Of a stretch of DNA of 64,000 nt, positions 2,840 through 61,352 are shown piece by piece. This DNA is from Lophium mytilinum (taxonomy: Eukaryota): the NCBI GenBank assembly GCA_010093605.1, contig MU004183.1, forward strand, positions 1,116,001 to 1,180,000, read 5' to 3'. Numbering within the stretch: the stretch's first letter is position 1; each line of letters starts with the position of its first letter. The notes beneath the pieces were generated by a model, which was given only the letters and a program-made list of their open reading frames with translations, had not been told where the DNA came from and searched no databases. Position numbers and translations under genes: made by a program.

Positions 2840-4513
2840 AGCAAAGCTTGCTGCCGCACGGACGGGCCCTGTGGCGGGGCGATGCAGTGCAAAGGTGGAG
2901 GGTGGTTGCAGGACAGCAGATTGAACAGCACAGCTCGCAGGAGCGGACTCCGGGAGCTCAAGGGAAGGTGGATGGTGCAGCACAAGCTTCAAGCTTCAAG
3001 CTTCAAAAGGAGCCGGGAATGTGGGCAGATGGTGAGGGGAGAGGCGGAGGGCTTGGTGGGGTAGGTTGCTACCGGGGGCTCACAGCTGAAGCTCCAGCGC
3101 GCCCAATTGCCGTCGACAATTAGCATATTCAGGCTGCTCGTTACCACCAACTCTGCGTGCGAGCTGTGCCTGACAGCTGTTTCAGCGCACGCTGCCCTTC
3201 TTCCTTAAAACAGTGTCCGCGCCGCCGTTGGGCAACATCGCAGGTCGAGGGCGAGCTGCGTCTGGCAAGCAGCTTGAAAGAACAAACAAAGGCTCGAGGA
3301 CTCCGGGCTTCGCCGAGGCCGCGTCCAAAGTCGGAGCTACCATGCGCCTGGTATACAGCTCGTTGGTCGCCTTGTTATTTTACGCTCGCAGTCGTCGTGG
3401 GACAACTCAGAAATGGACCGTGCACAACACTTCAACACCATTACCCCTCAAGGTTAACTTTCTACGACCAAACCTTGCAGATGGTTAGATCGGCTGCTTG
3501 GGTATATTCGTGTGAAATTTCAACCTGGTGCGGTGTTTGACCGTGTAGATAAATGTCAGTGACCACAATTCAGCGAAAGGGCCGACTTAGTCAGCACATG
3601 TCCCGCCAACTGGAATTCTGTCTGACCTGAAGTAGATGCAACGTTAGCTTGAGCCAGGGCGCGGAGTTAGAGGGGTTCCGCAAGGGGCTTGCATTAGCAG
3701 GTTTGTGGTCGACTCTCTTGTGCTTCCATGGGTCGCTCCAGAGCTGACGAAGAGCACACGTTAGCTGAGCTTGAGTCGTGCGTCGCCGCGTAGGGTTCAG
3801 CTGAGTTGAACCTCGGGAGGCAAATCTTGGAACGCTGGACTGTTCTCCAAGGACCTTGGAGTAACTCGGCTTGGCGCTTGGAATGTAGTCCAATCCGTGC
3901 TCCTCTGGCTGCCGCATGCAGGCGGCCATGATGAAAGCACGGCAGATGGGGCCAATAGTGGTGGAATCCGTTGCCGGGATGAGGCGTTTCGTTGTTTCGG
4001 CCCGCCAATTCACGACTTCGACAGAAGGGGCAGCCATTATTGGGTCCGTGAGCCGCTTGGTGATGCTTGAGGAGGGTGCCGCCAGAGCCAAAGCTGGATA
4101 CGACATCGAGGAGGTCGAGATAGACTCAAACAGCGCGGAGACGCGGCAAGGCGTCCCCAAGACTCTGCAGCGGCGTCTTTAAGGCGGGAGGCGTCTGCTC
4201 GTCAGCATGCTGAACGCTGCATATTTTTAACTTTCTTCCCACGGATCTCGCGCCGCCCTGCTGCTCGTTTCCACTCCCCTCTTCCGGGCGTTTCACATCG
4301 CCTCCAGCTGCCGTCCCGCCGGTGTGGCGCCCAAAGCCTTCATCCCCGGGGCCTCAGATGGCAAGTCGACGCTGCATCTCCAGCCCTGTGCAGGCTCGAG
4401 TGTCCCTTTCTGTTGCCCCCGGCCAGTCTCCGACTTCACTTATCCCCTCTCTCGCTCCCGCTTATCTGCATGGCCTGTTTCCACCTTTCAAGTCTCCCTC
4501 TGCGTGAGAAGAC

Positions 4514-5596
4514 ATGTCGTTGACTGTGAAAGCCTTAAACGGTGATACAAGCTTCCTCCTCACATTCTCGCCTCCTGTTGCACCGCTCTCGTCCCCAGGT
4601 CTCTTCCCTGGATCTTTCACTCTGCTCATAGACCCGTTCCTGTGCGGCTCAGCCAAGATCCTCAGCTCCAAGTTCTCCATATCAAAGCATATAACCAAGC
4701 CATGTATAGACTCATTGACGGAGCTAGACCAAGAGCCCGATATCATCTTGATATCTCAAGATAAGCCCGACCATTGCCACGAGGAAACGCTCCGCCAGCT
4801 TCCGCCAGATTGCCAGTCTACTATACTTGCGAGTCCTGCTGCCGCGAGGAAGATTCGAGGATGGCAGCACTTCGCACCAAGTCAGGTGCTCTCCATGGAC
4901 AGATTCTCGGAATCAGACCAGTCTTCGATCTTTCGTATGACACTACCAGCCTTTTCTCCAAGAGGCTCCCCAGGTGAAGTGACCGTAGCGTTCATGCCCG
5001 CTAGAAGGGACATATCCGGTTTGCATAACGCTGTGGGCGTGACGTATCGGCCGCCATGTAGTGTTCTGTCTGCCTCTCTAGGATCTTATATGGACCTACC
5101 TCCGACTCCGCCAGCATCACCTCGCTCGCCGAGAACCATCTCAGCTGGCCCTCGTACCATCGTGCCGTCCCCATACAATGACAGAGAGAAGACGGTGTCG
5201 GTGTTATACTCTCCACACGGCGTATCCTACGAGATCATCCGGCCATACGCATCATCCCATCTCGTCTCCGAGTCCGCCCTCCCCCTGGATCTCCTCATGC
5301 ACTCCTTCGACCGTGTCACCAACCCAATCTACCTTGGGGGCAACATCGCAGCCGGCTCGCCTGGCGGTGTGGAAATTGCCCGTAATCTCCTCGCCAAGGC
5401 ATGGATCAGCGCTCACGATGCCGACAAGATCAACAAGGGGGTATCTGTGAAGCAAATCCGGATGCGGAAGTTTGGCCTGGATGAAATCAAGAGGATGCTT
5501 GTTGGCGGAGATAAATTGCCGGGGCCTAGCGTGTCCATCCAGACGAACGTCGTTAGCCTTCCTGCAGGCGAGGAGTTCCGCATCGAGAGGGGATGA
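4514..5596 (+). CDS. Metallo-beta-lactamase-fold (beta-lactamase B-like) protein, intronless, 360 aa
   Basis: LNGDTSFLL, LLIDPFL, PDIILISQDKPDHCHEETL and WISAHD motifs. Confidence 0.75.
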   Translation: MSLTVKALNGDTSFLLTFSPPVAPLSSPGLFPGSFTLLIDPFLCGSAKILSSKFSISKHITKPCIDSLTELDQEPDIILISQDKPDHCHEETLRQLPPDCQSTILASPAAARKIRGWQHFAPSQVLSMDRFSESDQSSIFRMTLPAFSPRGSPGEVTVAFMPARRDISGLHNAVGVTYRPPCSVLSASLGSYMDLPPTPPASPRSPRTISAGPRTIVPSPYNDREKTVSVLYSPHGVSYEIIRPYASSHLVSESALPLDLLMHSFDRVTNPIYLGGNIAAGSPGGVEIARNLLAKAWISAHDADKINKGVSVKQIRMRKFGLDEIKRMLVGGDKLPGPSVSIQTNVVSLPAGEEFRIERG

Positions 5597-6402
5597 AGCA
5601 ATATGTCAACGCGACACATGTTCTCGAGCCTACCATACGTGGAAGATACACGAGGCCACGTAAGGATTCATTTTTGACCACTATATCATAATCTCGACCG
5701 ATCCGACCCGTCCAACCCATTCTTTTCATCCATCACAACCGCCACCACTCCAACCAGTTTTGCCAGCACAAAGTGCGGAATTCTTCTTCATACCCCCGGA
5801 CAAGCCGAGGCATACAATGAAAAATGGGTGGTTGCTTTATGCCGAAGCAAACGCGCAACCAAGCGCCAGACCACGCAATAAACCATTGCACATGCGGCAC
5901 CAGAGGGCGAGTCTGGTGTGCATGGTCTGAGTAAGGAATCGAACCTTGAATGTCGCAGTCCCAGATGCCAGAAGGCAGAGAGAGGCGGTTGTCACGCTAT
6001 TTCCCAGGGGAGACGCGGAACGTGCCACCGGCACGACCGATCGGCATCCTTTGACCAGACGTGAGGGAGCGCTGGGCAGGTTAGCAGTGGTGATGAGGAT
6101 GGTGATGCGGATGACTTACGACGCCCATGAAGGAGAAAGGAAGAGGACAGCAGGCGGACGGGAAGATATAGGGAGTGTGCGTTGCTGAGTAAGGGGTTCC
6201 GTAGGACTGTGAGACCTATCAGGCGTCTGGACAGGTTCAACCATGGATCACTTGATGGAATAGGAACAGGCACATACTCGGGAACATCTAGATATCCAAT
6301 TAAAACAGGATCGATGCGAATTCATTCACAAGCATCAATGCATGACAAGTCTCTTTGAAAGCTTCATACTCTATGCCGAATATATACATGACCTCACTGC
6401 CT

Positions 6403-19544: not shown

Positions 19545-20771
19545 ATGCCTCCCAAGAAGTCTACCGCCGCCGCTCCCAAGAAGGCCGCCGCCGCCGCTCC
19601 CGCCCATGGCAGCTACCAAGGTATGTCGCTCATTATCGCACCACGCAACGCTCGCGCAAGCTGCGTGGCTGTTCCATCGTGATCGCCGCTCAATACTGAC
19701 TATGCCCTATAGATATGGTTAAGGAAGCTATCCTCAACGTAAGTCTACGATTTCCGGCGCATCACGACCACCCCGCTCGAGATTGCGACCGAACACATGT
19801 CGCGTCACTTCCTCCTCCACCACGCCACCCTACCAAACTCTCTAAGCTATTGAATTGAGTACTGACTTGTTCTTCTCCTCTTTCAGCTTAAGGAACGCAA
19901 TGGAAGCAGGTTAGTTCCCATAGTTTATCATTCTGTTGTTGTTCGCGGCGCCACGTCACTTGCCGTCACTGAGAAACATCTGCTGACCCGATTCCTCTGC
20001 AGCCGCCAGGCCATCAAGAAGTACATCCAGGCCAACAACAACCTCGGCGGCACCACTGAAGCCATGTTCACAAGCCACTTGAACCGCGCTATCTTGTCTG
20101 GCGAGAAGAGCAATGATTTCGCTCGCCCGAAGGGTCAGTCATTCCACACCTTCCCGCCCATCTCTTTTGTTTACTACCTTTTCTACGCGTTCATTCTCTC
20201 AACTCTTCATCCTTGCTATTGATCTGCTGTCGGGCTGAATCATTTCCTCGGGACTGTGTTCTGTTGATCGCTGCAAACATGTAACTAACATACCTCTCAG
20301 GTCCTTCCGGTCCCGTGAAGCTTGCGAAAAAGGAGGCTAAGCCCGCTGCTGCCAAACCTGCCGCCAAACCTGCTGCGGCAAAGAAGGTGGCTGCTAAGCC
20401 AGCGGCGAAGGTATGTTCGCATTGCTGATGTCATTGTCGTGACTGGGGTCTGACATGGATAACAGAAGGCATCCGCCACCAAGGCTCCAGCCAAGAAGCC
20501 CGCCGCAAAGAAGGTTGCTGCGAAGAAGGCTCCCGCAGCGAAAAAGGTCGCAGCTAAGCCCAAGGCCAACGCTGGCCGTCCACGAAAGACCGCCCAGCCT
20601 GCACCCGCCGTCGTTGAACCCAAGACCATTCTAAGCAAGACCAAGTCCGGTCGAGTAACCAAGACCAAGGCTCCTGCTGTCACGAAGCCCGCAAAGAAGG
20701 CCGCCACCAAGAAGGCGCCGGCGAAGAAGGCAACTCCCAAGAAGGCCACCCCTAAGAAGGCTGCAGCATGA
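19545..20771 (+). CDS. hhoA: Histone H1 (linker histone), 6 exons
   Basis: MPPKKSTAAAPKK...SYQ|DMVKEAILN|LKERNGSS|RQAIKKYIQANN...|GPSGPVKLAKK and a K/A/P-rich tail; introns 19621-19712, 19739-19886, 19910-20002, 20134-20300, 20411-20465. Confidence 0.96.
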
Positions 20772-21660
20772 GCGGGGGACAATGCTGTCCTTCTTCATTT
20801 CTCAGGTCTCGAACCATCCTTCATAGGCGACGGTCGGTAGGCGTCCGGCGGATACTTCGGACGGGCGGGGCTTCTTGTGTGATATCCATTTCTTTTGGTT
20901 TAACGGTCGAAATTCGGGGAACTATCTACCTTCTAGCCTCGAAAGTGTAGCGCGTAATGGTGGCGATTCTTCCTTGCCATTTACTACCTCAATCATCACT
21001 GCGAGGCGGGGGCTCTGGTACTAAGGTGTGGGCGGCGTTCACGGGGAGTTGGTTGCATGTTCATGTCACGATTGATTTACTGGGTGGGAAACGGGAACTT
21101 TATGAGGGCGGGCTCGGCGAGTGTGTCTGGCGAGCTGGGGTAGAGAACATAAATAGCATCGCTTCGTTGAAAATTCGAAACCGGTTGCTTCGTTAATATT
21201 CAGTCTCGTTTGTTGTGATTTTCGTTTGCGTCGCGTCGTAGTTCTGAGGTCAAAACAACGCGCTCTCTTGGCGAAGTTGGGATCCACAGTTTGTATGGCT
21301 CGTGCTGAGATCGATTACTATTGGACAGTGGCCTTATCTGTGGCTGTTATTTCCACTTCGTTAGAGCTCGCAGCTCCGCCATTTTCCCTTGCTTCTTACC
21401 CTCACGTTCTTCTAATCCGTGATCACGACGACTTGGATCTAAATAACGAAAACATGAATGATGGTGAAAAATGAACAGAGTTCAGTTCGTAACTTCTTAA
21501 GTGATTGATTTGTGTTCAATCTGTATCTCTTCAAAGCTTTTGGGAACTTGGTCGATTGATCACGGTATCGTTTGCCTCACCGCTTATATCCTTCTCTCGC
21601 TCATACCTTTATATCGTGTAATTCCTCGCCGCTATCTCCCTTCGGGGCGCTGCGCAATTG

Positions 21661-21671
21661 TGGCGTAGTGA
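21661..21671 (+). promoter_or_regulatory. Pol III A-box-like element
   Basis: TGGCGTAGTGA against consensus TRGCNNAGYGG. Confidence 0.6.
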
Positions 21672-21763
21672 CCGCTGACCTTACAGCGGAGGCTGGTACA
21701 TACGCCAGCTTGAAAAAACCCCTTGCGCGCAATATGGGGTTTTTAGTAGGGCTTCGGCCCGAC

Positions 21764-21771
21764 TTTTTTTT
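21764..21771 (+). terminator. Pol III oligo-dT terminator
   Basis: T8 directly after the terminal GGGC-UUCG-GCCC hairpin. Confidence 0.65.
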
Positions 21772-21788
21772 GTCTCTCACTCACTATG

Positions 21789-21798
21789 GGTTCGATAC
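21789..21798 (+). promoter_or_regulatory. Pol III B-box-like element downstream of the terminator
   Basis: GGTTCGATAC matches GTTCRANNC. Confidence 0.6.
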
Positions 21799-22422
21799 GT
21801 ACTGTGTCTATTCTCCAAAAATATTTTTATCTTTTTGATGGTGATTCGTTTGGTCAAGATTAGACCTTGCTCGCTCTCTTGGCCACCGCTTACACTATCT
21901 CGTAGACTGGACTACTTCCCCTTCTAAAGCGCCCCTTGTACCGATGTCTCAGAATATTCGCCATCATGAATAATGTACGTAGGTATATTTGTTCTCTGCA
22001 TAGATAACGGGTTGCCAAGCACCCATAACCATTGTACATTTATAGTGCATTTTGACGCCATCCACTATATGTTTCCCAGGACCAGCATCTCAGAAGACAC
22101 CTTATCTAACCCCAATGCTTGGTACATTTCATCCAGGCAGGTGTACGACGACGACTTAACGGAGGTAGAACCAAAGAAGAAGGCGATAAGGTTAGCGAGG
22201 TTCTCGAGGCGGACTAATCATAAATAGGAAACACAGTGAACTACCGTGCTTGGCACATAATGCAAACAAGCATTGGGGGATCACCTGTCAATTATGGGGG
22301 AAGAATAAGCTTGGTACGATGAGAAGTGAAACGTGTGTATATAGATCTTTCACCCGCTGTTGTTCCTGGAAACGGCGTGCTTTACCCTCTTGCTCTCTCA
22401 CACCCGTTACCTTCTAGCCAAT

Positions 22423-23859
22423 ATGAGGTATTTCCTCGTCGCGTATATGATCCTTCCGATCACTGTTGTGCTTGCTGATCTCTTGCCTGTCCAATTCAAG
22501 GCACCAACCGCTGCACATTTTCGAGACATCGTTCGCAACGACACTTTCGATTTTGGCTGTAGACCGATTGCTCATCCTACCGATGACGGACAGTTCACGC
22601 TGCATGCTCTGCTTACCGAGGAGCAGATTGCTCATGTCACCAAAGAGTATGCGTCCATGCCGGAGCTCTCCGTCCACAGGCAGCTGGTCAAGAGAGCGGC
22701 CACCGCACCTATCGGAACTGGAGATCGATTCAAGTCTGGCACTGTGGCCCCTATTGGCCTTGGAACAAAGGCTTCAGGGACGACAATCAGCAGTATCATG
22801 AATGTTGCAGAGATCAGCTCGGCAGTCCTAGGCCTTGTCAATACCTACAGCGTCACCTCTATTACTCTACCCTACAAGACTTTTAACGGCGCGACCCAAT
22901 CCGCCGCTTATGTTGGCGCCGGCTCGGACAAGTCAAAGTACCACCTCTATCTGAGCGCTGGTGTGCACGCCCGCGAACGAGGTGGTCCCGATCAACTCAT
23001 CTACTGGATCTCCGATCTGCTAGCTGCGAATAGCAGTGGGAGCGGTCTTTCCTACGGCAAGAAGACCTATACCAACGCACAAGTAAAGAGCGTTCTCAGC
23101 GCTGGCATCGTCTTCTTCCCTCTCGTGAACCCGGATGGCGTCACCTACGACCAATCATCCGGGTCCTTGTGGCGCAAGAACAGGAATACCAAGTCCGGCT
23201 CCAGTGGCTCTTCAGTCGGCGTCGACATCAACCGCAACTTCGACTTCCTCTGGAACTTCCGCAAATACTTCGACTCGTCCGAATCTCCGGCTTCGACCTC
23301 GCCAAGCTCAGAGACATTCTACGGGACGGCAGCCGCATCGGAGTCGGAAACTAAGAACATGGTGTCTGTTTACGATTCGTTTCCTAAGATCCGCTGGTTC
23401 ATGGACATCCACTCTGCGGCTGGCGATCTCCTCTACAGCTGGGGCGACGACGACGACCAGAGCACTACCACGACGATGAACTTCCTCAACGCCGCCTACG
23501 ACGGCAAGCGCGGGGTTGTCGATGACTCGGTTTACAAGGAGTACATCCCATCGACCGACGCAACGAATGTCAAGAATGTTGCTGCCAAGACTATCGCCGC
23601 GATGAAGGCCGTGGGCGGCCGTTCTTACACGACCATGCAAGCGGTGGGCCTGTATCCTACTTCTGGGGCGAGTGACGACTACGCATTCAGCAGATATTGG
23701 GCGAAGAGTGGGGTTAACAAGGTCTATGGCTACACGATGGAGTTTGGGTACTCGACAAACTTTTACCCCACCCTCACGGAGTTTAATGAGAATATCCTCG
23801 ACACGAATGCTGGGTTCATGGACTGGGCGTTGGCTGCTATTAGCGTTGGCCTCGAGTGA
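22423..23859 (+). CDS. Secreted zinc carboxypeptidase, family M14 (prepro-enzyme), intronless
   Basis: Signal peptide MRYFLVAYMILPITVVLA, KR site, HARE, NPDG, WRKNR, VDINRNF, DIHS, SGASDDY, MEFG. Confidence 0.92.
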   Translation: MRYFLVAYMILPITVVLADLLPVQFKAPTAAHFRDIVRNDTFDFGCRPIAHPTDDGQFTLHALLTEEQIAHVTKEYASMPELSVHRQLVKRAATAPIGTGDRFKSGTVAPIGLGTKASGTTISSIMNVAEISSAVLGLVNTYSVTSITLPYKTFNGATQSAAYVGAGSDKSKYHLYLSAGVHARERGGPDQLIYWISDLLAANSSGSGLSYGKKTYTNAQVKSVLSAGIVFFPLVNPDGVTYDQSSGSLWRKNRNTKSGSSGSSVGVDINRNFDFLWNFRKYFDSSESPASTSPSSETFYGTAAASESETKNMVSVYDSFPKIRWFMDIHSAAGDLLYSWGDDDDQSTTTTMNFLNAAYDGKRGVVDDSVYKEYIPSTDATNVKNVAAKTIAAMKAVGGRSYTTMQAVGLYPTSGASDDYAFSRYWAKSGVNKVYGYTMEFGYSTNFYPTLTEFNENILDTNAGFMDWALAAISVGLE

Positions 23860-24942
23860 AACCGGGGGCTTGATAGTATGGGGTAGTGCGCCAGATCGGT
23901 GGTCATTATTGCAGTGGATCGTCAGTGCAATAGGCTTGATTGAAAGTAATGACAAAGGACAGAGTAACGTATTCCCACAATACTCATGAGGCCAAAGTAG
24001 GAATTCGAGTATGTTTGAAAATGAGAGCTGAATCGAGAAGGGAACGGACAGATGGAGCTGAATGTGCAATTTATGGTGGTGCTGACAACGCCGTAAAGAC
24101 GTGGCTCCAGGACGTGGTAATTTCGGACTAGGATGATTTCGACTCAGATGTGCCTTTGCCTCTGTAGCGTCAGATTGAAAAGCAGGCGTGAAGTGCCCGA
24201 AGTGCTTGATAGGATCAAGACACTGAATGCTTCGTTGAGTCCCGATATCAGAAGTAGGCATGGTGTCCTTCCTCACGACGCAGCAGGGGAGGCTATTTTT
24301 GCTCTGGACCCAGCAATCGGATTCTCTGGCAGGGCTGCACACCCGCCGCCACCGTGCTGGCAGGGCGGTACTACCGGCCGCCAAAGTCTCTGTGGCATGG
24401 TTTGGCCCCTGAGGCGCGCGCTGGAAGACGGCTTTAGTGGACGAACTGTCAGCGCCCTCGCGACTCACGGGAGCCGGATCGGGCGGGGAGTAGCCGCGTT
24501 GACTCAGCTGTGTGTGCCAGTGTGCCGTGGATGCGAGAAGGAAATGAGAAATTCGCACTCAGCCACGGCCAGGACAGCCCCCTATGGTGCGGAGGCCTCC
24601 CAAGCTTCCAGGTTGTCGTGGTCTTGGCATCTAGGCGCGGCATCTCGGACGCCGCTTTGTTTCTGCCAGTCTGCCCAGCAACGCTCGCTGTGAAGGGCAT
24701 CCCGTCTCTCACACGCCCTCGAAACTGTCCTCGCCATTCTTGCCTGAGCACCTATTCCCCGCCGTCTAATCCCAAATCTTCCCCTCCGCCCTCGAACTTG
24801 TGCGCCCCGACCAGCTCGCCCAGTGCGCTGCCAATTGCCCGAGAGCCTGCAAGCCGTTTGACGACACCCCATCGACGAGCCCGCCCCGGGCAGCGTCTAC
24901 CGCCCAAAGCCACCCCATGAGCCGATGCTGCATTCCCTCGAC

Positions 24943-30475: not shown

Positions 30476-32050
30476 CTTCACCCACGACCACACACCTCGA
30501 AGCCGGATGCAATGCATGAATGTGAGGGCGTAAAGGTAGGTTTATAATATTCAAATAATCTAGAATATATCTCGACGACCCGCCCGTCCATTCTCCTGGC
30601 TCTTAGCTGGCTGTCAGAAGTTCCTGAATCTGAGCGTGCCCACCCTGGCACCATCTATCTCGAGGCAGATGGTCGGAGCGTGCTCCCTGGAGATTGTCGA
30701 GCGTCATATTTCACTCCAAGACCATTCGATCGACAGAACCATGTGGAAGTGTCTCCAAACCCAGCCGGAGCTGCCACACGCGGTTCTCCCTCCCCGCTCG
30801 CTGAGGTGTGGCTAACGCGGTGTGTGGTGGAGCGATCATTGGATGCCGTTGCTTTTGCCATGCTGCGATTCGGCTCCGCTGGCCACGGTACCTGCAGTGG
30901 GCGTCCTGGAGAGCGTCCAGTGTGTGCGGCCTATCCAGGTAGCGGATTTCCAGCAGGGCTCCAGGCTCGCTCACCTTCCTCATCCTGCGGGGTCCTGGGG
31001 TGTGCGGTGACGAGGGCGTGAAGGCAGTAGCGGTAGCGTGCTCTCAGGAATCTCGTGCCCCCATGCCGGTCCATTATCGGCGCATCGAAGCCTTCACAAT
31101 CCCCTTCCGTCGCTGCCGACCACGTCCCCACACGCCATCTGACAGCCTGGGGCGCGGTTATTGGCAGCAATCGGCGCAAGGAACACGGTGGTGGCGCACA
31201 CGATGAGCCGTGGTAGGAATCCTGGGGTGCGAGTGTGGGAGCTTCGAGAAGGCCACGGCGTGCTGCGGTGGGAGGGCACGCAGACAGCCACGGGCGGAAT
31301 CGACAAAGCAGGCACGCACGCAGCGCAGAGGGCTATCTATAGGCGTGTCTGAGTGGAGGCGGGCCGGTCTGAGGGGTGCTACTCGTGTCACTCCGGGCAA
31401 ATGATGGCGAAGGTGAAGCATGATTCGGCATCCAAACGCGGTCTGGGTTCGATATCCCGGCCGCCTGGCAACCCAAAATACTGCTCGACGGCACGGGCCG
31501 GGCGTGAGGCTTGCCTGCCTGCTGGCTGGCGATGCTACGCTCGTCCCCACGCTGCTTCTTTCGTTGTTGCAGCTCGTCGTTGCGGACTACTTCTATCTGC
31601 CTCCCGATGGCGGTAGCGGATTCGAGGTTGTCAAGGAAGGCCGGGCGGGCCCTGTGCTCCGCTTTCTGCCTGGGCGGGCTCGCTTGGCAACTCTCCTTTC
31701 ACCAGACTTGCCGCTGCCGTGACTTCCATCTCGGCCTCCAAGCACCCCCGCCCTGAAAAGTGATATCGCGTGTGAGTTTGTTCCATCTCTCCTGCTCACA
31801 CTTCTCTCCCCGCTGGCCCCGCTGGCCACGTTGCCGCCCCGCTGCACGCGTCGCTGCCAACCACACGCCGGCCGCGCTGTGATCAGCAGCCTCACCTCCA
31901 CCAAGCGCGCCCTCGCCCGCTGCGCGCCTCGCAGTGCGCCGGAGTCTGGGAGTCTGTCGCGCGGCTGCTGGCGGGCCCGAATGAGATGGAACGAGTGCTG
32001 ACTGCTGCTGCGTAGATGGAGAGTGCTGACCCGCCCGTCCACCGCGAACC

Positions 32051-51349: not shown

Positions 51350-52862
51350 TTATTGCGTCTCCTTTTTCTTCAAAAAGTCTCGCAACAAGGTTTCCGTACT
51401 TTCAGGATCATCTCTCTCGTGCCCGTCCTTCCAGTGACGGTAGAACTCCAGAACTACTTCGACAGCGATAAGGGCTATAATGGCCCACTCTAAACGGAGC
51501 CCGTGTTTCTCGCTGAGCGACTCCCTCAACACGCTTGCGATCTCTTGAGCAAATCCAATTTTCTCATTCAGAACCTTGATACGAACTCCGACATCTAAAG
51601 CACGCCCAACCTGGTCGTAGTACTCTCCAAGCCCGAGCTCATGTCGGCTATCCCAGAATATATCGGGGAGGGAGTCAGTGAGCTCCGAATAGAGGTTCAA
51701 TTGGGCTCTTATGCTCAACAATTCACCCGTTTTGCGGAGGATAAATGATCGTGTGAAGGGCAGTTTCGATCTTCGCAAGAGGGTCTGTGAATCCCCCGAT
51801 AGCATTGCTGGTATAGAGCGCGTTGATTGTTGGTAGGTACTGAGGAGGCTCTCTAACACAGCGAGCTTCGTTGATCGGGCCAAGCCAGAAGAAAAAGCTA
51901 TCTTGGCTAGGATAGTATCGACTTCATGCCGTTGGTCTGTGCCGTTATCACCTAGAGAAAATGTCTCGTTTGTTGCAGTCAAAGTGCGGTTGTGTTGGCG
52001 GACAGTCAATTCCTCACGAGCCTCGGAATCCTGAGTCTCTGCCTTAGTGCCCAAGATGATGGTATCACCGACGATATCACTGGTCTCTTTGGAGGGGTCC
52101 TCGAGATATTCCAGATCTTCAGTCTCTATTAAATTCAGGTGTGAACCCTCCGCTGCCGCAGGCAAAATGTTACGCACAAACCCAACAGCTTCGGCTTCGG
52201 GGACGTTCCAACTGACAACGGTGCCAGAGGGAAATATGAAGATGTCTCCCGGTCCCGGAAAGTCTACGTTATACGCTATTTCCGCAGTCTGCACGTGAAT
52301 GACTTGGGGGAACAAGCCGGTCTGGTATGGGTCAAGCTGGTAGCCTTGGTCTTGGACGAGCTTGGCAGCAGAAGTAATGTCGTACTGCTCCGCTGCGCAG
52401 TATGCCGTGACTGTCTACTCAATTGCATGTATTAGCTATTTCTTCACAGCTAGCCTAGATGCGTACCTTGGTCGCAACATCGGGGTCAACGAAGCGCTTG
52501 TTTCCCCTGCCTTTCACAAGTCCGCCCCTCGATCTTTGGGCCTCCACGGCTACTCGACGGAGGGATGAGGTTTTGGCCACACTATTCCTCGGCTTCCGCT
52601 GGTCCTGCTTCCCAGCCGAGTCGTGAGCATCTGCGTCGGAGGAAGGAGAGGGCAGTGGCGTCTCCTGCTTCTGCGACTGCTCCTGTTTCTTGTACACACA
52701 GCCTGCGTGTGAGAAGGCCCTTCGAGTAGGTGTGCCTGGAATGCTCGGCTCGCGACGTTGGCGGAGTGGATAGGCTGGCGGAAGGCTGGGGGAGCTGTGA
52801 GGGATGGTGGAGACATAGCTCCGGGTCAAGCAGTTCACGGCATTTCTGCGAAGGAAGAGCAT
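51350..52862 (-). CDS. DUF155 (RMD1/RMND1/Mrx10-like) mitochondrial protein
   Basis: Presequence; TAYCAAEQYD, FIFPSGTVVSWN, FSSGLARSTKL, LTDSLPDIFWD, LEWAIIALIAVE; intron ~52415-52466. Confidence 0.88.
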
Positions 52863-59705: not shown

Positions 59706-61352
59706 ATGCAGCTGTCCAAGTTCCTTGCCGTCGTCGGCAGCGTCGCTGCTACGGCCGTGGCTCTTGCAGGCCCCGAAGGTAAGGCTCGGTCCATTCCTGC
59801 TCTGTCGTCTGAGCAGACACCTCCACAGCCTCTCGGGACGCTGCTGCGTGCTCAGCTCGCGCTCGAATTGCTTGGACCGTGTTGACGGCATGAGAGCCCT
59901 GCCAGCGCGAGAACAACTCGACCCACGCTGGAGACCAGCCGTCTTGCTCTCGAAGGGCCCTCAGCTAATTCGTTTTGTGATCCAGATGTATCCGCCCGTG
60001 GCAGCGATGTCGACGTCCTTGTCCAGGTCTTCGAGGTCATGTCGACCAGCACCGTCTATACAACCCAGATCTTCACCGTCACGAACTGCGCTTCCCAAGT
60101 CCCCGAGTGCCCCGCTCACTCGACTGCCGTCGTGACCTCCACGATCGCGGTCACCACGACCGTGTGCCCGGTCAAAGTCACGTCGTCAATCACCATCACT
60201 CGGTCGCCGAGCCCCAGCCCTTCAAGTTCTCTGGTCGTTTCCAGCACCTCCGTCAACACACCTTCTTCCAGCAGCGTCTTGATTTCGACTCCTTCGAGCA
60301 GTGTTGTGGCCTCGACTCCATCCAGCGTCGTGGTTTCCACCTTGTCGTCCACTCGCGAGGTCGTCTCGTCTTCGTCCAGCAGCGTCGTCATCCCGACTCC
60401 ATCGTCCACCAGCAAGGTCGTCTTGTCTTCGTCTAGCAGCGTGGTCATTCCAACTCCGTCGTCCACTAGCACGAGCGTCTTGTCGTCATCAAGCAGTCTG
60501 GTGGTCCCGACTCCATCATCCACCAGCAAAGCAGTTTCGACCTCTTCCTCGAGCAGTCTTTCAACGCCGTCCACGCCAGCTTCCACGTCCAGCTCCTCCA
60601 TCACGAGCAACACGTTCCCTATCAACACGCCGCATGTCTCGTCTTCCTCTAGCAGCGTGGCTTCTTCAAGCAGCGTGGCTTCTTCAAGCAGCGTGGCTTC
60701 TTCAAGCAGCGTGGCTTCTTCAAGCAGCGTGGTGACCCACACCCCGTCGGCGTCCTCTTCTGGCTCTTCCGTCGCCAGCACGACTTATCCGATCAACTCG
60801 GGGCATATTCCAAGCTCTTTCAGTGTCGTTGCTCCGACCCAGACAATCAGCTACAGCACAACGAGAATTACCTCCACTCTCACCCATGCAGTTACGCAGA
60901 CACAGACCTTCGTCCCTTATTCCAGCACCAGCACTAGCTCTGGCATAGCTACCGGACCAGTCCAATCTTCCAAGCCGGTGGCATCCTCGTCGCCATTCTG
61001 GCCGAACACAAGCATTGTTACGAGCTCTGGCACGACCTTTTACCCGATTCAGACGATCCCGAGTTCGATTCCGGGGACCAATATCGTCACCGCGCCTTCA
61101 GGGTAAGTTCTCCCCTCCCCTCATCACATCCTCTTCTTCTGCGTTCGTCTTAATGGACTCTCAATTCCACTGCGTACTAACAGCTTGTGTTCTAGGCTCC
61201 CCAATGCTTCCGCCTCCAATGGAACCACCCTCCTCAATCCTACCCATGCTCCTAGTCAAACTCCATACTATCAAAACAGTGGCATGGCGATCAGTGCGAT
61301 CAACGGGATGGTGCTAGCTGTTCTCTGCGCAGTGGCCATCGTCCTGTACTAG
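59706..61352 (+). CDS. Secreted Ser/Thr-rich mucin-like, likely GPI-anchored cell-wall protein, 3 exons
   Basis: Signal MQLSKFLAVVGSVAATAVALA; introns 59779-59985 and 61103-61195; TNCASQVPECP...TTVCP motif; ends NSGMAISAINGMVLAVLCAVAIVLY*. Confidence 0.85.
60651..60732 (+). repeat. Perfect 18-bp coding minisatellite (AGCAGCGTGGCTTCTTCA) x4.5
   Basis: Identical units start at 60651, 60669, 60687 and 60705, with a partial unit at 60723. Confidence 0.95.

What the first reader, a model, noticed from the sequence alone, without database searches (positions are those of the whole stretch)
21634..21771. Unrecognised ~135-nt multi-hairpin RNA gene downstream of histone H1
Seen in sequence, almost every base is in consecutive hairpins. 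H1: CCC-UUCG-GGG (21638-47). H2: CGCUGCGC/GCGUAGUG, 8 bp with two G-U pairs (21648-70). H3: CCGCUG/CAGCGG (21672-89). H4: AGGCUGG/CCAGCUU (21690-711). H5: AAAAACCCC/GGGGUUUUU (21714-44). H6: AGU-a-GGGC-UUCG-GCCC-g-ACU (21745-64), followed by T8. Two cUUCGg tetraloops and the G-U pairs point to + strand RNA structure rather than DNA palindromes. It lacks the U6 ACAGAGA box, U1 AUACUUACCU, U2 GUAGUA, a tRNA cloverleaf, 5S sequence and snoRNA C/D boxes. The 5' CCCUUCGGGGC hairpin resembles the 5' end of fungal U6 as I recall it. Inference: a possibly undescribed fungal small RNA; a MePCE/Bin3-LARP7-bound, 7SK-like RNA is one speculative possibility.
Basis: partly seen in the sequence, partly recalled or inferred. 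Interest (0 to 1): 0.88.

Follow-up and report, generated by a model that had tools for sequence, protein, structure and literature searches.

The report
Candidate new fungal Pol III small RNA
A tightly folded stretch of about 135 bases downstream of a fungal histone H1 gene carries the signals of a small RNA gene read by RNA polymerase III and matches no catalogued RNA family, but no separate transcript or relative in another species has been shown.

Summary
Window 21634-21771 (+) folds into six back-to-back hairpins (MFE -58.1 kcal/mol, z -3.96, 0 of 200 shuffles as stable). The minus strand does not (z -1.03). The fold is among the three most stable of 5554 windows scanned.

The element also has a complete RNA polymerase III gene layout like yeast SNR6. 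There is a TATA-like box about 25 nt upstream, an A box inside at 21661-21671, a T8 terminator at 21764-21771, and a B box just downstream at 21789-21798. This layout occurred in 0 of 400 (strict) and 2 of 400 (relaxed) simulated 64-kb sequences.

Rfam 15 gives no hit; U6, 7SK, Y, vault, SRP, 5S and tRNA were not found. The host is a Pleosporales-like fungus.

One RNA run covers the locus, but only as part of a 3.1-kb contig. The same run holds a second, diverged copy from elsewhere in the genome with an almost identical 3' hairpin module.

No orthologue could be fetched, so there is no covariation test and no proof of a discrete about 135-nt RNA.

Best reading (0.55): a new Pol III small RNA gene family of unknown function. 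The 7SK-like idea is not supported.

The parts
21608..21615 (+). TATA-like box (TTTATATC), 24-30 nt upstream of hairpin 1
   Evidence: Read. The position fits the -30 TATA of SNR6-type Pol III genes (PMC9136082 passages). Included in the layout count (strict+TATA: 1 in the real window).
21634..21771 (+). Predicted small RNA, about 130-138 nt; the 5' end is inferred and not mapped
   Evidence: Fold statistics. No Rfam family.
21638..21647 (+). Hairpin 1, CCC-UUCG-GGG (weak, probability 0.46)
21648..21670 (+). Hairpin 2, 8 bp with two G-U pairs
   Evidence: probability 0.99
21661..21671 (+). A-box-like motif TGGCGTAGTGA (one departure from the recalled consensus TRGCNNAGTGG), about +20 to +28 from the likely start
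   Evidence: 2 matches to TRGCNNAGTGR in 64 kb on both strands; this is one of them.
21672..21689 (+). Hairpin 3, 6 bp
   Evidence: probability 1.00
21690..21711 (+). Hairpin 4, 8 bp with two G-U pairs
   Evidence: probability 0.97
21714..21744 (+). Hairpin 5, A5C4/G4U5 stem with a 13-nt loop. Both arms are kept in the second copy, with one C-to-U change that turns a G-C pair into G-U.
   Evidence: Loose-end letters, compared by eye.
21745..21764 (+). Hairpin 6, the terminal UUCG hairpin. It is part of the 34-nt module 21736-21769 shared with the second copy.
21764..21771 (+). T8 run, a Pol III terminator signal
   Evidence: 2 T8 runs in 64 kb on both strands.
21789..21798 (+). B-box match GGTTCGATAC, 18 nt after the T run. 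The flanks do not form a tRNA T arm (by eye).
   Evidence: 4 matches to GGTTCGANNC in 64 kb on both strands. Joint layout tested.
19700..21196 (+). Context: linker histone H1 gene. Introns 20134-20300 and 20411-20465, stop 20769-20771, mRNA contig end 21196. The upstream exons were read by eye only.
22423..23859 (+). Context: intronless M14 zinc carboxypeptidase gene, about 650 nt downstream of the element

Best explanation
The element is a small non-coding RNA gene transcribed by RNA polymerase III. Its promoter is laid out like that of the yeast U6 gene SNR6. TFIIIB would bind the upstream TATA-like box. TFIIIC would bind an A box inside the gene and a B box just beyond the terminator. Transcription would start near 21634-21644 and stop in the T8 run. 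The product would be an RNA of about 130 nt ending in oligo(U) that folds into six stacked hairpins. At least one diverged second copy exists elsewhere in the genome. That copy keeps hairpin 5, the terminal UUCG hairpin and the U run almost unchanged, while the upstream part differs. From this I infer a conserved 3' 'handle': a terminal hairpin plus U tail, the kind of end bound by La, LARP7 or Lsm proteins. The more variable 5' hairpin body would give each copy its specificity. Shown here: the fold, its strand bias, the motif layout, the second copy, and that the locus lies inside transcribed sequence. Inferred: Pol III transcription, the RNA ends, protein binding, and any function.
For: The fold is strong and strand-specific: z -3.96 with 0 of 200 shuffles on the + strand, against z -1.03 with 30 of 200 on the - strand. 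Only 3 of 5554 scanned windows fold better after GC adjustment. Four of the 41 pairs are G-U, which would be A-C mismatches on the other strand. Each promoter or terminator motif is rare in the window: B box 4 hits, A box 2 hits, T8 2 hits in 64 kb on both strands. One of each sits here on the + strand in the order TATA, A box, T8, B box. That layout occurs once in the real window, in 0 of 400 simulated 64-kb sequences (strict) and in 2 of 400 (relaxed). The SNR6 layout is a TATA box at -30, an intragenic box A, and an extragenic box B downstream of the terminator (passages read in PMC9136082). Run X3 behaves as RNA: its contigs skip both H1 introns at GT..AG, and nothing covers the introns or 21197-21394. 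X3 covers the element within a 3134-nt contig of depth 18. X3 also holds another contig that matches only 21736-21769. All 12 X3 pieces are at least 95% alike, so that match has at most 1 mismatch in 34. By eye, the 30 letters before the match agree with the window at 17 of 30 positions in the same register, and at 15 of 19 over the hairpin-5 arm and loop start. These include a C-to-U change that keeps pairing as G-U. From the bin depths I estimate that contig's depth at about 55 (my arithmetic).
Against: No discrete transcript of about 135 nt is shown. The only RNA evidence is assembled contigs, which cannot give ends, strand or local level. The contig that covers the element starts 240 nt upstream of it and runs on through the M14 gene, as a Pol II transcript would. 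The second copy's contig runs on at least 255 letters past its T run. No orthologue was found: 0 hits for exact 25-mer and 20-mer searches. The one plausible fungal orthologous locus of the M14 neighbour (L001, 72% identity) has no copy upstream. Translated-ORF searches gave 0 hits. None of the collections searched is known to hold close relatives, so these blanks are weak evidence. There is therefore no covariation test. The motif patterns were chosen after I had seen the sequence, so the 0 of 400 overstates the significance. The A box departs from the recalled consensus at its last base. There is no purine at the ideal start distance. The second copy's downstream B-box-like motif has 2 mismatches (by eye).
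Confidence: 0.55

Rival explanations
1. The hairpin array is a structured segment of a longer Pol II transcript, either a long 5' leader of the M14 carboxypeptidase mRNA or an upstream non-coding transcript. The Pol III-like motifs are then coincidental.
For: In RNA run X3 a single 3134-nt contig (depth 18) runs from 21395 through the element and the M14 gene to beyond 24000. No contig ends at the element. H1 introns and 21197-21394 are uncovered, so the cover is not DNA carry-over.
Against: A contig across two features does not show one transcript, as the caveat says. A leader of about 1 kb would be unusually long for a fungal mRNA (my general knowledge). This reading does not explain the TATA/A box/T8/B box layout (0 of 400 and 2 of 400 simulations). 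Nor does it explain a second locus that shares the 3' module.
Confidence: 0.2
2. The element is a copy or relic of a dispersed repeat, a SINE- or MITE-like element with Pol III promoter boxes, and not a functional single-purpose RNA gene.
For: At least two loci share a nearly identical 34-nt module with diverged flanks. A and B boxes are typical of tRNA-derived SINEs, and such SINEs are reported in Aspergillus (PMC5063351; search listing and abstract only). Hairpin 6 itself resembles a weak B box (by eye).
Against: There is only one copy in 64 kb. The best B box lies after the T8 terminator, so it would not be carried by a retrotransposed RNA. A CGATACG core of that region reappears after the T run of the second copy (by eye), which fits DNA-level gene duplication. 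I saw no A-rich tail, no terminal inverted repeats and no target-site duplication around 21600-21800 (by eye; no repeat family includes the site). The genome copy number could not be counted, because no genome is held.
Confidence: 0.15
3. The element is a chance or non-functional palindromic intergenic sequence with no RNA role.
For: No orthologue, covariation or discrete transcript was obtained. One other place in the window folds even better without any known role (31074-31211 minus strand).
Against: The fold is strand-specific and uses G-U pairs. The motif layout is rare. A second transcribed copy has a conserved 3' module.
Confidence: 0.1

Closest known systems
Yeast SNR6 (U6 snRNA gene), promoter architecture
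   Same: Upstream TATA box, A box about 20 nt inside the gene, T-run terminator, and B box outside the gene downstream of the terminator (PMC9136082 passages; motifs here).
   Different: The RNA is not U6. It has no ACAGAGA, and the Rfam U6 model does not match at E up to 10. The B box here is 18 nt after the terminator, giving an A-B distance of about 128 bp, against 202 bp in SNR6.
7SK snRNA (MePCE/LARP7-bound Pol III RNA of animals)
   Same: A Pol III-type gene. It has a hairpin at the very 5' end and a terminal 3' hairpin followed by a U tail.
   Different: It is about 135 nt, not about 300 nt or more (recalled). It has no GATC motif and no match to any Rfam 7SK model. In fission yeast, the fungal MePCE and LARP7 homologues (Bmc1, Pof8) are reported on telomerase RNA and U6 (PMC8917221 abstract and passages; PMC10484740 abstract in listing).
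Small paralogous Pol III RNA families with a conserved 'handle' and a variable body (Y RNAs, vault RNAs); comparison from recalled knowledge
   Same: A length of about 100-140 nt, Pol III signals, more than one diverged copy per genome, and one part far better conserved than the rest.
   Different: The 5' and 3' ends do not pair with each other here. The conserved part is the 3' hairpin module. There is no Rfam Y_RNA or Vault match. Whether this fungus has the partner proteins was not tested.
Bacterial sRNAs with Rho-independent terminators (SorY, SorX, TarB)
   Same: A GC hairpin with a UUCG loop followed by a U run. This is the only part that aligns.
   Different: Scores are 15-18 bits against gathering scores of 46-111. 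The host is a fungus with spliceosomal introns.

Membership tests
SNR6-type (TATA + A box + downstream B box) Pol III gene | TATA box about 30 bp upstream of the start | tested here: met
   TTTATATC at 21608-21615, 24-30 nt before hairpin 1. The start site itself is not mapped.
SNR6-type (TATA + A box + downstream B box) Pol III gene | Intragenic A box about +20 | tested here: met
   TGGCGTAGTGA at 21661-21671, one of 2 matches in 64 kb. Its last base departs from the recalled consensus.
SNR6-type (TATA + A box + downstream B box) Pol III gene | T-run terminator, with a B box downstream of it | tested here: met
   T8 at 21764-21771. GGTTCGATAC at 21789-21798. Joint layout found in 0 of 400 and 2 of 400 simulations.
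SNR6-type (TATA + A box + downstream B box) Pol III gene | Occupancy by Pol III, TFIIIC and TFIIIB, and a discrete transcript | not testable with these tools
   Only assembled contigs of one RNA run were available.
U6 snRNA | ACAGAGA box, AGC triad context, match to the U6 model | tested here: not met
   No ACAGAGA or GATTAGC. No RF00026 match at E up to 10 on 151 nt.
7SK snRNA | 5' hairpin with GAUC repeats; match to 7SK models; length about 300 nt | tested here: not met
   No GATC. No Rfam 7SK match. Length 138 nt.
7SK snRNA | Binding by MePCE/LARP7 and a HEXIM partner | not testable with these tools
   No genome of this fungus is held, and no binding data are available.
tRNA / tRNA-derived SINE | Cloverleaf; A and B boxes 30-60 bp apart inside the transcribed unit; many copies with target-site duplications | tested here: not met
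   ARAGORN finds 0 tRNAs. The A-B distance is 128 bp with T8 between them. One copy in 64 kb. The genome-wide copy number was not testable.
Box C/D or H/ACA snoRNA, 5S rRNA, SRP, RNase P/MRP, Y, vault RNA | Match to the Rfam model or the defining boxes | tested here: not met
   0 matches at gathering score in 64 kb. None of these families appear among matches at E up to 10. No C box.

The most novel reading that the evidence does not exclude
This is the founding member of an undescribed family of Pol III-transcribed small nuclear or cytoplasmic RNAs of Pleosporales, and perhaps of Pezizomycotina more widely. The family would use a U6-gene-type promoter and be present in a few diverged copies per genome. 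Its members would share a conserved 3' hairpin plus U-tail handle for a La/LARP7/Lsm-type protein and carry a variable multi-hairpin body. That would make it a fungal counterpart of regulatory Pol III RNPs such as 7SK, Y or vault RNAs.
Probability: 0.3. Interest if true: 0.75.

Novelty: new variant of a known kind. Interest (0 to 1): 0.55.

Why it matters
As I recall, the known Pol III products of filamentous fungi are essentially tRNAs, 5S rRNA, U6, SRP RNA and RNase P RNA. Regulatory Pol III RNAs like 7SK, Y or vault RNA are known mainly from animals. A new, structured, multi-copy Pol III RNA with a U6-type promoter in a large fungal order would add a new RNP to fungal biology. It would also offer a new partner to look for among fungal La, LARP7 and Bin3 proteins. 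In practice it would give a second compact Pol III promoter and terminator unit for guide-RNA expression in Dothideomycetes. If it turns out to be a leader structure or a repeat relic, it is of minor interest.

Tried and rejected
1. Known families. Rfam at gathering score on the whole window gave 0 matches. Rfam in E-value mode on 601 nt and 151 nt gave only weak bacterial sRNA and terminator look-alikes of 10-18 bits. I rejected these as terminator-hairpin resemblance.

2. Own genome. None is held, so genomic copy number and the presence of La, LARP7 or Bin3 genes could not be checked.

3. Sequencing runs. X4 and X7 (other organisms) and X6 (soil metatranscriptome) cover only H1 exons up to about 21010-21176 and nothing at the element. 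This says nothing either way. I did not lay the DNA runs X1 and X2, so I lost the chance to count genomic copies.

4. Exact-word scans with the 3' module. A 25-mer in metagenome contigs gave 0 hits. A 20-mer gave 0 hits in prokaryote genome contigs and 0 in viral contigs.

5. Synteny through the M14 neighbour. An alignment of 24 of the 120 listed homologues was scanned against metagenome contigs. Most were 25-50% identical, bacteria-like loci. Only L001 (72%) looks like a fungal orthologue, and its 1528-nt upstream region holds no copy. Both metagenome scans are now used.

6. Covariance model. A model built from the single sequence was run over the window and 4 of the 80 fetched loci (L001, L002, L003, L019). 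It found only the element itself, plus a 4-bit chance match.

7. Overlapping ORF. I searched the 88-aa ORF that overlaps the element, hoping that gene callers had translated orthologous loci. There was no candidate in the word-indexed search and 0 hits at E up to 0.001 in the 1.84-billion-protein HMMER search.

8. Earlier findings of this scan gave nothing for this genome or sequence, and only unrelated bacterial, phage and archaeal UUCG-hairpin notes.

9. Literature. Searches for a described Pol III small RNA of filamentous fungi listed nothing that fits. I judged this from titles and abstracts only, so it is weak evidence that the RNA is not in print.

10. Ideas dropped on reading the sequence. 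A tRNA with a long intron is excluded because the T arm does not pair and T8 lies in between. A mini-intron inside hairpins 2-3 is too short. U4-like pairing is excluded because no U4 model matches. A U6-derived origin rests only on a recalled resemblance of the 5' hairpin and the hairpin-5 loop to U6. It was not tested against a fungal U6 sequence, because none was available from a tool.

Full report
**1. The observation**

- The + strand of 21634-21771 folds at -58.1 kcal/mol, z -3.96, and 0 of 200 dinucleotide shuffles reach this.
- The reverse complement folds at -43.2 kcal/mol, z -1.03, and 30 of 200 shuffles fold as well.
- Hairpins 2-6 have mean pair probabilities of 0.89-1.00. The 3-bp hairpin 1 has only 0.46.
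- Four of the 41 pairs are G-U, which explains the strand bias.
- I scanned 5554 138-nt windows on both strands and regressed MFE on GC content. Only 3 windows had a lower residual than the element.

So the structure is real and exceptional for this DNA.

There is no tRNA in the window.

The upstream gene is a linker histone (Pfam Linker_histone, 37.9 bits). RNA contigs define two of its introns and a 3' end near 21196. The element therefore lies about 440 nt beyond the H1 mRNA, and about 650 nt before an intronless M14 carboxypeptidase gene.

The best named relatives of the M14 protein are Pleosporales: Clohesyomyces at 88% identity, then Delitschia, Corynespora and Lentithecium.

**2. What else is there**

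The element carries a full set of RNA polymerase III signals on the + strand:
- a TATA-like TTTATATC at 21608-21615;
- an A-box match TGGCGTAGTGA at 21661-21671, one of 2 matches in 64 kb on both strands;
- a T8 run at 21764-21771, one of 2;
- a B-box match GGTTCGATAC at 21789-21798, one of 4. It lies 18 nt after the T run, and its flanks cannot form a tRNA T arm (by eye).

I counted the layout 'A box 40-250 nt before a T run of 6 or more, with a B box between the A box and 150 nt past the T run'. It occurs once in the real window. It occurs in 0 of 400 first-order Markov simulations of 64 kb with the strict patterns, and in 2 of 400 with relaxed ones. I defined these patterns after seeing the sequence, so the figures are generous, but the coincidence is still unlikely.

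This is the unusual layout of the yeast U6 gene SNR6: a TATA box at -30, box A in the gene, and box B outside the gene downstream of the terminator (passages of PMC9136082). The consensus forms of the boxes are recalled knowledge.

**3. Known families**

Rfam 15 gives nothing at gathering score in the whole window. In E-value mode there are only 10-18-bit matches to bacterial sRNAs. These align with the terminal hairpin and U run alone. U6, 7SK, Y, vault, SRP, RNase P/MRP, 5S and snoRNA models do not appear even at E 10 on 151 nt.

**4. Expression and a second copy**

Of the runs found, I laid X3, X4, X6 and X7.

X3 is listed as RNA only by guess, but it behaves as RNA. Its contigs skip both H1 introns at GT..AG. 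H1 exons have depths of about 4000-6000 against 18 for the neighbours. Nothing covers the introns or 21197-21394.

In X3 the element lies inside one 3134-nt contig (depth 18). The contig runs from 21395 through the M14 gene and past 24000. The locus is therefore in transcribed sequence, but this is not a discrete small RNA, and contigs cannot show ends or strand.

X3 also holds a contig that fits only 21736-21769, that is the 3' arm of hairpin 5, hairpin 6 and six Ts. All 12 X3 pieces are at least 95% alike, so this match has at most one mismatch.
- The 30 letters printed before the match agree with the window, in the same register, at 17 of 30 positions. Over the 5' arm of hairpin 5 and the start of its loop they agree at 15 of 19.
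- One C-to-U change in that arm turns a G-C pair into G-U.
- The 30 letters printed after the match differ from the window, except for a CGATACG core of the B-box region, shifted by 6 nt.
- All these comparisons are by eye.
- From the two affected bins I estimate a depth of about 55 for this contig.

The element therefore has at least one diverged, transcribed paralogue. Its 3' module is far better kept than the rest.

X4, X6 and X7 cover only H1 exons and are uninformative for the element.

**5. Relatives in other species**

I found none, and the tools gave little chance of finding any.
- Exact words of the 3' module are absent from metagenome, prokaryote-genome and viral contigs.
It yielded one plausible fungal orthologue (L001, 72% identity) whose upstream region has no copy.
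- A single-sequence covariance model finds only the element itself in the window and in 4 of the 80 loci.
- Searches with the overlapping 88-aa ORF found nothing.

There is therefore no covariation evidence.

**6. Explanation**

The best-supported reading (0.55) is an independent Pol III small RNA gene with an SNR6-type promoter, belonging to a small paralogous family.
- Transcription would start near 21634-21644 and end in T8.
- The near-identical 3' module in the two copies suggests a constrained handle: a terminal hairpin plus oligo(U), the kind of end recognised by La, LARP7 or Lsm proteins. It could also reflect an internal promoter-like role, since hairpin 6 is weakly B-box-like.
- The hairpins upstream would be the variable body.

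These last steps are inference.

The rivals are:
- a structured part of a long Pol II transcript, such as an M14 leader or upstream lncRNA (0.2). The 3.1-kb contig favours it, but it does not explain the motif layout or the paralogue;
- a dispersed repeat or SINE-like relic (0.15). The second copy and the A and B boxes favour it. The B box lying behind the terminator, the single copy in 64 kb and the absence of a tail or target-site duplication disfavour it;
- chance (0.1).

**7. Comparison with known systems**

The promoter works like SNR6, but the RNA is not U6.

It is not 7SK by any testable criterion: no GATC motif, no model match, and less than half the length. In fission yeast the MePCE and LARP7 homologues are reported on telomerase RNA and U6 (PMC8917221, abstract and passages; PMC10484740, abstract in the listing).

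The nearest analogy is to small multi-copy Pol III RNAs with a conserved handle, such as Y and vault RNAs. That is an analogy only, drawn from recalled knowledge.

**8. Verdict**

This is a real, unusual and uncatalogued element with good in-sequence evidence for a Pol III gene. It lacks proof of a discrete transcript, of conservation and of function.

Two literature searches, judged from titles and abstracts only, listed no description of such an RNA.

Interest is moderate to high (0.55). It would rise sharply with a northern band and covarying homologues in other Pleosporales.

Noticed in passing
window 31074-31211, minus strand: One long imperfect hairpin of about 50 bp. MFE -70.8 kcal/mol, z -4.0, 0 of 200 shuffles. 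The + strand gives z -2.85. It is the most stable 138-nt window in my scan. GC is 0.63, it lies between short ORFs, and it has no Rfam match.
   Followed up: partly
coded run X3, a contig matching window 21736-21769 only: A second, diverged copy of the element from elsewhere in the genome, present in an RNA run at an estimated depth of about 55. Only 30 letters on each side were visible.
   Followed up: partly
window 21395-24000 and beyond: One RNA contig of 3134 nt spans the intergenic region, the whole M14 gene and about 530 nt past 24000. This implies either very long M14 untranslated regions or overlapping transcripts.
   Followed up: no
window 22423-23859: The M14 carboxypeptidase gene has no intron and is 77-90% identical across the 23 aligned homologues, many of them named as Pleosporales. 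A prokaryote-style pipeline labels its metagenome relatives 'murein tripeptide amidase MpaA'. Bacteria-like loci at 25-46% identity were numerous. An old bacterial origin is conceivable but untested.
   Followed up: no
window 60262-60750: Nested tandem repeats of 18, 27 and 57 nt (families D2-D4), probably a repetitive coding region.
   Followed up: no
window 52759-52769 (+): The only other A-box match in the window (TGGCGGAGTGG). ARAGORN calls no tRNA there.
   Followed up: no
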